From the human T2T-CHM13v2.0 reference genome, Homo sapiens: a stretch of 64,000 nucleotides of DNA. The notes below the pieces were generated by a model, which was not told where the DNA came from, searched no databases, and saw nothing but the letters and a program-made list of their open reading frames with translations. The stretch lies in the NCBI RefSeq assembly GCF_009914755.1, contig NC_060925.1. One strand, given 5' to 3'. Shown here piece by piece: positions 12,201-13,293 of the stretch (the first letter of the stretch is position 1; every line of letters starts with the position of its first letter). The translations under genes were made by a program, and so were the position numbers.

Positions 12201-12571
12201 AGCCACCCACTGCCCCTCTTACCCTGCTGCTAGGTGGTGGCTGCCTTACCAGGAGACCCCCTCACCACGTGCACATGTGTCCATGGTTTGAGGAGGCCTT
12301 CACCTCCTCAGAGGCCACTGTCTCCATGCAGGGAGGGCAGTGGAGACTGGAAGGAAGAGGCCAGAGTCTGGTGTTAAGTTCATATGTAAACACCTTAAAC
12401 TTAATTACGGCTAATAGAACTTATTTCTGCTGTTTAGTTTTGTGGGTTTTTTTTTTTTTTCACAATTTCTGTTTACTGAACTTTTCGGTTTATCCCCTTG
12501 CTTCCCACTGAGTAACAAATTTTCTTCTACTTGTTTAAGAAAGTAATACTTTCTACTTTTATTGATATTAC

Positions 12572-12866
12572 TTTTTTTTTAATTTGAGACAAGAGTCTCG
12601 CTCTGTCCACCAGGCTGGAGTGCAATGGTGCGGTCTCAGCTCACTGCAACCTCCGCCTCCCGGGTTCAAACGATTCTCTTGCCTCAGCCTGCCAAGTAGC
12701 TGGGACTACAGGCGCATGCCACCATGCCCGGATAATTTTTGTATTTTTAGTAGAGACGGGGTTTCACCATATTGGTCACACTGGTCTCAAACTCCTGACA
12801 TCGTGACCCACCTGCCTCATCCTTTCAAAGTGCTGGGATTACAAGCCTGAGCCACTGCGCCAGGCC
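12572..12866 (-). mobile_element. Full-length AluS (Sg-like) directly 3' of the Y5 copy
   Basis: Starts GGCCTGGCGCAGTGGCTC at 12866, dimeric, A-tail ends near 12572. Confidence 0.9.
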
Positions 12867-12949
12867 AAAATGCAAAGCTAGTCAAGCGTGGTTGTGGGGG
12901 GAGACAATGGTAAATCAGCTTAACAATAACCCACAACACTCAGACCAAC
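12867..12949 (-). pseudogene. RNY5P1: Y5 RNA (RNY5) retro-pseudogene, probably RNY5P1
   Basis: Minus strand reads GTTGGTCTGAGTGTTGTGGGTTATTGTTAAGCTGATTTACCATTGTCTCCCCCCACAACCACGCTTGACTAGCTTTGCATTTT. This matches recalled hY5 with ~4 substitutions plus a variant 3' tail. The symbol is from memory. Confidence 0.9.
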
Positions 12950-13293
12950 ATATTACTCTTAATACTAATCATGTTTGTTTACCCCTGTTGGTTTCTTTAA
13001 CTTACCATCTAAATCTTCTCCTAGTAAGACTTTGTTAGACTTTTATGTTCCTTTGGTCTTGCCCACTCTTACTTACTATGTAAATTATTTTATTATATAC
13101 TTACAGGTTTTTTTTCCTTTTTGTTAGTCCTGTTTCAGACTACAAACTTTGCCAGCGTATTTGCTCACCATCACTTCCCATCTCTCTTCCCATGTCTAGA
13201 TTAATTTTTCTATATTTGACCACTTCTTGCAAGAATATGTTCTAAATGGGCCCTTTTGTGAAAAAGTTACTGAAGCCTTGTGTCCCTGAGAAT

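What the first reader, a model, noticed from the sequence alone, without database searches (positions are those of the whole stretch)
12565..12960. Y5 RNA-Alu chimeric retrocopy inside a single target-site duplication
Seen: the - strand reads tattAAGAGTAATAT | near full-length Y5 (12949-12867, ending TTTT) | GGCC... full-length Alu | A-tail | AAAAGTAATAT. The duplicated motif (ATATTACT on +, at 12565-12572 and 12950-12957) flanks the whole Y5+Alu unit and follows an L1-endonuclease-like TT/AAGA site. The Alu has no duplication of its own at the junction, and the Y5 has no A-tail of its own. Established: L1 mobilises U6/L1 and similar chimeras by template switching or RNA ligation, and Y RNAs and Alu RNAs are Pol III products reported to bind La/Ro60. 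Inference: this was one insertion of a Y5-Alu fusion, possibly favoured by a shared RNP. Both partners are intact at the junction (oligo-U end to Alu nt 1), so end-to-end joining is as plausible as a mid-template switch. Y5 retrocopies are also the least common Y-RNA class.
Basis: partly seen in the sequence, partly recalled or inferred. Interest (0 to 1): 0.8.

Follow-up and report, generated by a model that had tools for sequence, protein, structure and literature searches.

The report
Y5 RNA–Alu chimeric retrocopy, one insertion
A copy of the small Y5 RNA is joined head-to-tail to a full Alu element and both sit inside one target-site duplication, so they entered the genome together; this is a rare but known kind of L1-made chimera, and Y5 seems unusually prone to it.

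Summary
On the - strand the window reads: TT/AAGA nick-like site, 11-nt repeat AAGAGTAATAT (12960-12950), Y5 nt 2 to its TTTT end (12949-12867; Rfam Y_RNA 62.8 bits), Alu nt 1 with no spacer (12866), a short A-tail, then AAAAGTAATAT (12575-12565). The repeat matches 10/11. Neither part alone has a repeat better than 5/8.

The whole genome holds 16 Y5 retrocopies. Two others, on contigs 13 and 23, also join the Y5 oligo-T end straight to Alu nt 1. Their Alus share no private variants, and one belongs to a different variant class. These are therefore separate events and not copies of one master.

Matched pattern scans found 0 such junctions for Y1/Y3/Y4, against at least 174 A-tailed copies.

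Best reading: one L1-mediated insertion of a Y5-Alu chimeric cDNA, most likely made when the reverse transcriptase jumped from the Alu RNA 5' end to the Y5 3' end. Prior RNA ligation cannot be excluded. Small RNA-Alu chimeras (U6, 5S, 7SL, H/ACA) are already in print, so this is a new member of a known kind. Primate orthologues could not be checked.

The parts
12957..12962 (-). L1-endonuclease-like target, TT/AAGA, at the 5' edge of the insertion
   Evidence: Read. It matches the TT/AAAA motif quoted in PMC13174262 at 5 of 6 bases.
12950..12960 (-). 5' copy of the target-site duplication, AAGAGTAATAT
   Evidence: 10/11 identical to the 3' copy, with an exact 8-nt core.
12867..12949 (-). Y5 RNA retrocopy (RNY5P1), from gene nt 2 to the terminal TTTT, with no A-tail of its own
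   Evidence: Rfam Y_RNA 62.8 bits. It is 95% identical to the RNY5 gene at C7:150123725. Aligned.
12586..12866 (-). Full-length Alu body that starts at Alu nt 1 directly after the Y5 TTTT
   Evidence: It differs at 17 of 236 non-CpG sites (7.2%) from a majority consensus of 50 sampled Alus.
12572..12585 (-). A-rich tail of the Alu (AAATTAAAAAAAAA). Its last four A overlap the 3' repeat.
12565..12575 (-). 3' copy of the target-site duplication, AAAAGTAATAT

Best explanation
This is one L1-mediated, target-primed insertion of a bipartite cDNA. L1 endonuclease nicked a TT/AAGA site. Reverse transcription was primed on the A-tail of an Alu RNA and ran to the Alu's first nucleotide. The enzyme then jumped to the 3' oligo-U end of an untrimmed Y5 RNA and copied it almost to its 5' end. 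Second-strand repair left an 11-nt duplication around the whole unit.

Shown: the anatomy, the single duplication, the spacer-free junction, and the independent recurrence at two other loci. Inferred: that the join was made by a template jump during reverse transcription. Also inferred: that Y5's long unpaired 3' tail makes it a better acceptor than Y1/Y3/Y4.

I put the odds that Y5 and Alu entered in one event at about 0.85. The confidence of 0.6 given below is for one event AND a template jump as the joining step.
For: 1. Repeats. A 10/11 repeat sits exactly at the two outer edges. The best repeat for the Alu alone or the Y5 alone is 5/8. The null rate is 19 of 63,500 positions.

2. Junction. 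It reads ...GCATTTT|GGCCTGG, with no A-run and no spacer.

3. Census. Of the 16 Y5 retrocopies in the genome (all read), 3 join the Y5 oligo-T end directly to Alu nt 1: this one, C13:102038176 and C23:136237797. In the other two the Y5 is 5'-truncated, from about nt 9 and about nt 47. That is what an aborted copy after a jump would look like.

4. Independence. The three Alus share 0, 0 and 2 non-CpG variants pairwise. The 2 shared variants are common ones, seen in 10 and 5 of the 50 sampled Alus. The contig-13 Alu carries a different variant class: 57A, 77A and 87T, seen in 12, 12 and 11 of 50. The T-run at the junction also varies between the three: TTTT, TTT and TTTAT.

5. 3' ends. The 3 fused copies keep the full Y5 3' tail. 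Of the 11 unfused copies that reach the 3' stem, 8 run from ...GACTAGC(TT) straight into an A-rich tail.

6. Chance adjacency. With about 1.3 million Alus (PMC13174262, passage seen) in 3.1 Gb, the chance that a given bond is the head of a sense Alu is about 2e-4. Three of 16 is far above that. This is my own arithmetic.

7. Other Y RNAs. Y1/Y3/Y4 gave 0 of 28 top Rfam pseudogenes fused. Pattern scans gave 0 true junctions, against at least 174 distinct A-tailed sites found with the same Y motifs. Fisher p is about 4e-4. The Y5 version of the pattern recovered 2 of the 3 known junctions, with 0 control hits.

8. Folding. The predicted unpaired 3' tail is 9 nt for Y5 and 4 nt each for Y1, Y3 and Y4.

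9. Ligation route. RtcB ligation needs a 2',3'-cyclic phosphate and a 5'-OH, and a 5'-triphosphate on the downstream RNA greatly reduced it (PMC6789731, passages seen). By established knowledge, an Alu RNA that starts at nt 1 is a primary Pol III transcript with a 5'-triphosphate.
Against: No orthologous empty site was seen, because no primate genome is available here.

The repeat is short, and its first A's merge with the A-tail.

At the contig-13 locus the repeat is ambiguous. One candidate is an exact 8-mer AGAAAGCA that leaves 27 unexplained, genome-unique bases before the Y5. The other is an 8/10 match directly at the edge. At the contig-23 locus only a 13/16 low-complexity match exists, 15 nt beyond the tail.

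Sequence alone cannot separate a template jump from ligation of the two RNAs before reverse transcription. PMC6789731 argues that ORF2p prefers poly(A) 3' ends, which makes a jump onto a poly(U) end questionable.

The Y5 excess rests on 3 loci. The pattern scans need exact motifs: the Alu-head motif matched only 34 of 50 sampled Alus (10-mer) and 30 of 50 (15-mer), and the Y1/Y3 13-mer matched 17 of 28 sampled pseudogenes.

The divergence of the two parts does not test co-insertion usefully. By my count on the alignment, Y5 has about 1 private non-CpG change in about 75 nt. The Alu differs at 17 of 236 sites from a generic consensus.
Confidence: 0.6

Rival explanations
1. One insertion, but the Y5 and Alu RNAs were first ligated end to end into one chimeric RNA, as shown for U6/L1 with RtcB. 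That RNA was then retrotransposed through the Alu A-tail.
For: Both partners are complete at the join: the oligo-U end meets Alu nt 1. PMC6789731 shows that RNA ligation precedes U6/L1 retrotransposition, and it questions template switching onto poly(U) ends.
Against: In that paper, RtcB ligation required a 2',3'-cyclic phosphate on the upstream RNA and a 5'-OH on the downstream RNA. A 3'-OH or a 5'-triphosphate greatly reduced it. [quoted passage not shown] By established knowledge, Y5 ends in UUUU-OH and a full-length Alu RNA starts with a triphosphate. In two of the three loci the Y5 is 5'-truncated, which either model allows.
Confidence: 0.25
2. Two separate insertions that happen to abut. 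Either an Alu landed exactly behind an older Y5 retrocopy, or a Y5 cDNA landed exactly between an older Alu and the Alu's 5' repeat.
For: Alus often sit close to Y retrocopies. Two other Y5 copies have a sense Alu 18 and 34 nt downstream, behind an A-rich spacer (L085 and L082). One Y3 copy has the same layout (L021). From my recollection of its abstract, Perreault et al. 2005 concluded that Alus near hY pseudogenes are not chimeric partners. That paper is not held here.
Against: The Alu alone has no repeat (best 5/8) and neither does the Y5 alone (best 5/8). The Y5 has no A-tail. There are zero bases between the two parts. The same zero- or near-zero-spacer junction occurs at 3 of 16 Y5 copies, against a chance of about 2e-4 per site. 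The fused copies keep the Y5 3' tail, which 8 of 11 ordinary copies lack.
Confidence: 0.08
3. All Y5-Alu copies descend from one source locus, for example a Y5 gene copy with an Alu behind its weak TTTT terminator. Read-through RNA from that locus retrotransposed like a composite SINE.
For: Three loci share the same architecture. The Y5 parts share a 3' tail block that differs from today's RNY5 gene.
Against: The Alus share no private variants: 0, 0 and 2 common ones. The contig-13 Alu belongs to a different variant class. The variant Y5 tail also occurs in an unfused, A-tailed copy (L006), so it marks the Y5 source of that era and not a chimeric master. The present RNY5 gene is followed by unique sequence and not by an Alu.
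Confidence: 0.05

Closest known systems
Bipartite chimeric retrogenes with a small RNA fused at its 3' end to an Alu. U6-, 5S rRNA- and 7SL-Alu are attributed to Buzdin et al. 2003 by PMC1802619, whose passage I saw. Buzdin 2003 itself is not held. PMC1802619 also reports one H/ACA snoRNA-Alu chimera.
   Same: The two transcripts lie in the same orientation. The small RNA is upstream and 3'-complete. The poly(A) sits only at the Alu end. One duplication flanks the whole unit. The target is L1-type.
   Different: The upstream partner is Y5 RNA. I did not find Y5 in this role in the searchable library.
Y RNA/LINE-1 chimeric insertions (HY1, HY4), reported as new in PMC13174262. I saw passages and supplement hits.
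   Same: A Y RNA is co-inserted with a second retroelement within one TSD. One supplement row (hg38 chr16:82,869,008-82,870,814) has HY1 47-119 and AluSz6 2-285 side by side with an L1 inside one 15-bp TSD.
   Different: There the downstream partner is L1. HY5 has 0 occurrences in the 4 supplement files held; long supplement files can be cut when stored. Here no L1 sequence is part of the insertion.
U6/L1 chimeras made by RtcB RNA ligation (PMC6789731, passages seen)
   Same: A Pol III small RNA that ends in oligo-U is joined at its 3' end to a retroelement RNA and then inserted by L1.
   Different: U6 carries a 2',3'-cyclic phosphate and joins 5'-truncated L1 with a 5'-OH. Here the downstream RNA is complete from nt 1, and Y5 is not known to carry a cyclic phosphate.
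Ordinary A-tailed Y RNA retropseudogenes (Perreault et al. 2005; recalled, not read here)
   Same: Same source RNA family, same L1 machinery, and a primate-era age.
   Different: Ordinary copies carry their own A-tail right after the Y 3' end. This held for 28 of 28 sampled Y1/Y3 copies and for 8 of 11 unfused Y5 copies that reach the 3' stem. This copy has none and uses the Alu's tail.

Membership tests
L1-made bipartite chimeric retrogene (small RNA-Alu type) | cDNA copies of two different transcripts fused directly, in the same orientation | tested here: met
   The Y5 TTTT at 12867 abuts Alu nt 1 at 12866, both on the - strand.
L1-made bipartite chimeric retrogene (small RNA-Alu type) | One target-site duplication around the whole unit and none around either part | tested here: met
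   10/11 for the whole unit. Best 5/8 for the Alu alone and for the Y5 alone.
L1-made bipartite chimeric retrogene (small RNA-Alu type) | Poly(A) only at the 3' end of the downstream partner | tested here: met
   The A-rich tail is at 12585-12572, and there is no A-run after the Y5.
L1-made bipartite chimeric retrogene (small RNA-Alu type) | L1 endonuclease-type target (TT/AAAA-like) at the 5' repeat | tested here: met
   TT/AAGA at 12962-12957, which is 5 of 6 bases of the motif quoted in PMC13174262.
L1-made bipartite chimeric retrogene (small RNA-Alu type) | Both parts appear together at the orthologous site in related species | not testable with these tools
   No primate genome is held. 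The genome search states that the window's genome has no relatives here.
Ordinary Y RNA retropseudogene | Own A-tail and own TSD directly flanking the Y sequence | tested here: not met
   No A-tail. The best Y5-only repeat is 5/8.
Standard Alu insertion | TSD directly upstream of Alu nt 1 that matches the sequence after the A-tail | tested here: not met
   The 30 nt upstream of Alu nt 1 (the Y5 3' end) match the 3' flank at best 5/8.
RtcB-ligated chimeric RNA (U6/L1 type) | 2',3'-cyclic phosphate on the upstream RNA and 5'-OH on the downstream RNA | not testable with these tools
   RNA end chemistry cannot be read from DNA. The requirement is taken from PMC6789731.

The most novel reading that the evidence does not exclude
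Y5 is a preferred acceptor for L1 reverse-transcriptase jumps off the 5' end of Alu RNA. About a fifth of all human Y5 retrocopies (3 of 16) arose as Y5-Alu chimeras that capture the untrimmed, oligo-U-ended nascent Y5. Y1, Y3 and Y4 essentially never do this. The cause would be Y5's roughly 9-nt single-stranded 3' tail, against 4 nt in the others, or a Y5-specific co-location with Alu/L1 RNPs. If so, the length of an RNA's 3' overhang would be a rule for which cellular RNAs become the upstream halves of chimeric retrogenes.
Probability: 0.3. Interest if true: 0.5.

Novelty: new member of a known kind. Interest (0 to 1): 0.4.

Why it matters
The finding adds Y5 RNA to the short list of small RNAs known to be co-inserted with Alu in one L1 event. 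It shows that the annotated pseudogene RNY5P1 is half of a chimera.

The three independent junctions are natural snapshots of which RNA 3' ends the L1 enzyme, or an RNA ligase, can pick up. The contrast between Y5 (3 of 16) and Y1/Y3/Y4 (0 found) gives a simple hypothesis about acceptor 3'-tail length that can be tested at the bench.

It also qualifies the published general statement, which I recall from an abstract, that Alus next to Y pseudogenes are not chimeric partners. No function for the host is implied. The element lies between ZMYM4 and KIAA0319L and looks like neutral DNA.

Tried and rejected
**Pattern hits that were chance**
- Junction pattern with up to 2 mismatches: 5 hits, and 0 of 5 had any Y sequence upstream.
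- Variable-gap pattern: 4 hits. One was the known contig-13 locus. The other 3 were chance: two were ordinary Alu TSDs and one had no Alu.
- Junction-centred DNA query: 40 scored matches. Only the same 3 loci carried Y5. The rest matched the Alu-head part of the query with at most a few upstream bases, by query coordinates; their loci were not read.

**Master-locus idea**
- Tested by counting shared Alu variants and rejected.

**Contig-13 filler**
- The 27 nt between the exact 8-mer repeat and the Y5 were searched genome-wide with up to 3 mismatches. They are unique, so they are not a third repeated RNA. Their origin is unexplained.
- Rfam aligns the Y model from 6 nt before the clear Y5 start (L002:1494-1570, 39.9 bits). 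Part of the filler may therefore be a decayed Y5 5' end.

**Contig-23 TSD**
- Only a low-complexity 13/16 match was found. Left open.

**Age comparison of the Y5 and Alu parts**
- Too few sites to be informative.

- Perreault 2005 and Buzdin 2003 are not held.
I fetched short stretches instead.

Full report
**1. What is in the sequence**

On the - strand the window reads as follows.
- ...GATTAGTATT
- AAGAGTAATAT, 12960-12950
- GTTGGTCTGAG...CTAGCTTTGCATTTT, 12949-12867
- GGCCTGGCGCAGTGGCTCA...GTCTC, 12866-12586
- AAATTAAAAAAAAA, 12585-12572
- The last four A of that tail, then GTAATAT, which together read AAAAGTAATAT, 12575-12565
- CAATAAAAG...

Rfam calls 12873-12950 (-) a Y RNA at 62.8 bits and E 5e-12, against a gathering score of 38. 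The RNY5 gene was found in the same genome at C7:150123725-150123808. The window copy is 95% identical to it over gene nt 2-76 (alignment).

The 291 nt that follow align from their first base to the tail with other Alus. They differ from a majority consensus of 50 sampled Alus at 17 of 236 non-CpG sites, or 7.2%. That lies within the spread of the sample.

**2. Is the flanking repeat real?**

The repeat finder lists ATATTACTTTT at 12565-12575 and ATATTACTCTT at 12950-12960 as an 11-nt direct repeat at 91%.

I then compared 30-nt upstream flanks with 40-50-nt downstream flanks.
- The composite unit gives 8/8 and 10/11.
- The Alu alone, taking the Y5 3' end as its upstream flank, gives at best 5/8 and 6/11.
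- The Y5 alone, taking the Alu head as its downstream flank, gives at best 5/8 and 6/11.

Across the window, 19 of 63,500 positions have a 10/11 or better match 380-391 nt away. Some of those are probably real TSDs of other Alus, so this null is conservative.

The site before the repeat reads TT/AAGA. That is 5 of 6 bases of the ORF2p motif TT/AAAA quoted in PMC13174262 (passage seen).

No A-run separates the Y5 TTTT from Alu nt 1. A later Alu insertion into a Y5 retrocopy's own A-tail should have left an A-rich TSD copy there. This last step follows from the established TPRT model and is inference.

**3. Recurrence elsewhere in the genome**

The window's own genome (3.1 Gb, 24 contigs) can be searched. 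Two queries, the window's Y5 plus junction (15 matches) and the RNY5 gene (14 matches), together give 17 places: the gene and 16 retrocopies. I read all 16.

*Direct junctions.* Three copies join the Y5 oligo-T end directly to Alu nt 1.
- The window copy has Y5 nt 2 to the end.
- C13:102038176 has clear Y5 from nt 9 and the junction ...CACATTT|GGCCAGG.
- C23:136237797 has Y5 from about nt 47 and the junction ...GCATTTAT|GGCTGGG.

*The other 13 copies.*
- Two have an 18-nt or 34-nt A-rich spacer and then a sense Alu head (L085, L082).
- Two sit inside older Alus (L005, L008).
- One sits behind an Alu A-tail (L006).
- Two are 5' halves only (L084, L086).
- The remaining six (L004, L007, L009, L083, L087, L088) have no Alu next to the Y5 in the roughly 60-300 nt of 3' flank read. 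Four of them run into A-rich tails, as counted in the next paragraph; L007 and L009 end in T-rich or TTTG-repeat sequence.

*3' ends.* Of the 11 unfused copies that reach the 3' stem, 8 pass from ...GACTAGC(TT) straight into an A-rich tail and lack the last roughly 8 nt of Y5. All 3 fused copies keep that tail and the T-run. The chimeras therefore captured the untrimmed transcript. By established knowledge, that is the form that ends in UUU-OH and binds La.

**4. One master or separate events?**

I aligned 50 full-length Alus, taken from 111 BLAST HSPs in the window and loci L002-L040 and including the three in question. I then listed non-CpG departures from the majority consensus.
- The three Y5-linked Alus share 0 (window/contig 13), 0 (contig 13/contig 23) and 2 (window/contig 23) variants.
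- The 2 shared variants are common ones, present in 10 and 5 of the 50.
- Among the 990 pairs of sampled Alus that each lie under 10% divergence from the consensus, 0, 1, 2 and 3-or-more shared variants occur 258, 296, 251 and 185 times.
- The contig-13 Alu carries 57A, 77A and 87T (12, 12 and 11 of 50), which the other two lack. The other two carry 92A and 97T.

From recall of the diagnostic positions, these look like two different younger AluS lineages. I did not test subfamily names.

Two further points argue against a chimeric master. The T-run length at the junction differs between the loci. The Y5 tail variant shared by the fused copies also occurs in an unfused A-tailed copy (L006), so it marks the Y5 source of that period.

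At least two events were independent, and probably all three.

**5. TSDs at the other two loci**

*Contig 13.* The sequence after the A24 tail is GAGAAAGCAAAC. Two upstream candidates exist.
- An exact 8-mer AGAAAGCA after CTTCTTT. This leaves 27 unexplained bases before Y5 nt 9.
- GAAGGCCAAC directly at the Y5 edge, matching 8/10 by my reading.

The 27-mer is unique in the genome at up to 3 mismatches. Rfam starts its Y alignment 6 nt inside it.

*Contig 23.* Only a 13/16 AT-rich match was found, 15 nt past the tail.

These two loci support the recurrence of the junction but add little on TSDs.

**6. Is this a Y5 peculiarity?**

- Among the 30 best Rfam Y_RNA loci (only 52 were scored out of a very large candidate list), 2 are the RNY3 and RNY1 genes. 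In the other 28 the Y 3' end runs directly into an A-rich tail. None is fused to an Alu head.
- A junction pattern covering Y1/Y3/Y4/Y5 with up to 2 mismatches gave 5 hits, all chance.
- A variable-gap version gave 4 hits: the contig-13 locus and 3 chance hits.
- A Y1/Y3 13-mer followed within 0-8 nt by an Alu-head 10-mer gave 0 hits. The Y4 equivalent also gave 0.
- The same Y motifs followed by A5 gave 89 forward sites plus 311 reverse matches for Y1/Y3, and 25 forward sites plus 88 reverse matches for Y4.
- Reverse matches are counted several times per site. I counted 29 and 31 distinct reverse sites among the rows shown. That gives at least 174 distinct A-tailed sites.
- The Y5 version of the junction pattern recovered 2 of the 3 known junctions, with 0 control hits. 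The window copy is missed because of one substitution in the Alu head.

Fisher tests give p of about 4e-4 for 2 fused and 2 A-tailed (Y5, exact motif) against 0 and 174. They give about 5e-4 for 3 of 16 against 0 of 174.

Limits: the Alu-head motifs match only 34 and 30 of the 50 sampled Alus, and the Y1/Y3 13-mer matches only 17 of 28 sampled pseudogenes. Decayed junctions would be missed, and the Y5 numerator is 3.

One Y1-Alu-L1 composite inside a single TSD is listed in a supplement of PMC13174262. Y1 is therefore not wholly excluded from such events.

**7. Mechanism**

The layout is that of the bipartite chimeric retrogenes explained by L1 reverse transcriptase switching templates. PMC1802619 states this for an H/ACA-Alu chimera and cites U6-, 5S- and 7SL-Alu cases (passage seen).

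For U6/L1, PMC6789731 showed instead that RtcB ligates the RNAs first. Passages seen give the requirements.
- Ligation needs a 2',3'-cyclic phosphate and a 5'-OH.
- A 3'-OH or a 5'-triphosphate greatly reduced it.
- Other small RNAs are not normally so modified.

A full-length Alu RNA that begins at nt 1 should carry a 5'-triphosphate, and Y5 should end in UUUU-OH. Both points are established knowledge and were not tested here. I therefore favour the template jump, at about 0.6 against 0.25 for ligation. The same paper, however, doubts that ORF2p can jump onto poly(U) ends.

One possible reason for the Y5 bias comes from minimum-energy folds. They leave 9 unpaired 3' nucleotides in Y5, against 4 each in Y1, Y3 and Y4. 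That Y5's tail makes it a better acceptor is inference.

Tagged hY5 retrotransposes about as well as the other hY RNAs when it is supplied with a tail: 47.5 colonies against 16.7-57.5 (PMC2666806, table seen). The scarcity of Y5 copies is therefore not an inability to be copied.

**8. Comparison with print**

- PMC13174262 reports Y RNA (HY1, HY4)/LINE-1 chimeras as new. 'HY5' does not occur in the 4 supplement files held; long supplement files can be cut when stored.
- Full-text searches for hY/Y RNA with Alu, chimeric terms and retrotransposition found no paper whose listing or searched passages describe a Y5-Alu chimera: and with 0 papers. Most listed papers were not opened.
- RNY5P1 occurs in one paper, on extracellular RNA, of which I saw only the listing.
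- The key paper, Perreault et al. 2005, and Buzdin et al. 2003 are not held. I recall that the abstract of the first says Alus near hY pseudogenes are not chimeric partners. I cannot say whether it lists these three loci.

**9. Verdict**

This is a new member of a known kind. It carries a modest extra point, that Y5 is over-represented among Y-Alu chimeras, which rests on three loci. The orthologue test remains the decisive missing piece.

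Noticed in passing
window 12871-12874 (-); L002:1565-1568; L010 about 1535-1538; L006; the gene at L003:1576-1579: Every Y5 retrocopy that keeps the 3' tail has a 4-nt block of the CGCA type, or a CpG-decayed form of it (TGCA, CACA, TGTA), where today's RNY5 gene has GCTG. 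Almost all retrocopies also have C where the gene has T at gene position 33. Either the source gene of that era differed from the present gene, or a lost paralogue was the source.
   Followed up: partly
L086 (G000:C6:37737307-37737343): The 5' 37 nt of Y5 are flanked by a 13-nt direct repeat (GATAATGCTTTTG / GATAATGCCTTTG), with no A-tail. This looks like a tailless, 3'-truncated retrocopy. L084 (C12:97803161) is a similar 5' half.
   Followed up: no
L002:1473-1499 (G000:C13:102038149-102038175): 27 genome-unique bases lie between an exact 8-nt candidate TSD and the clear start of the Y5 part of the contig-13 chimera. Their origin is unknown. They could be filler, a decayed Y5 5' end, or ordinary flank.
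   Followed up: partly
L082 (C10:93317166) and L085 (C10:13945910): Two more Y5 retrocopies are followed by 34 and 18 nt of A-rich sequence and then a sense Alu head. I did not resolve whether these are later Alu insertions into the Y5 A-tail or another kind of joint event, because the Alu 3' flanks were not fetched.
   Followed up: no
supplement file 3 of PMC13174262, row hg38 chr16:82,869,008-82,870,814: A published table row has HY1 47-119 next to AluSz6 2-285, both antisense to an L1, all inside one 15-bp TSD. This is a tripartite composite in which a Y RNA and an Alu travel together.
   Followed up: no
window 13303-13592 (-): Two weak Metazoa_SRP hits below the gathering score mark another Alu, about 350 nt upstream on the same strand. 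It looks ordinary.
   Followed up: no
L008 (C1:234447614) and L005 (C19:38594945): These two Y5 retrocopies are inserted inside older Alus, and the duplicated target is itself Alu sequence. This shows that a nearby Alu does not by itself mean a chimera.
   Followed up: partly
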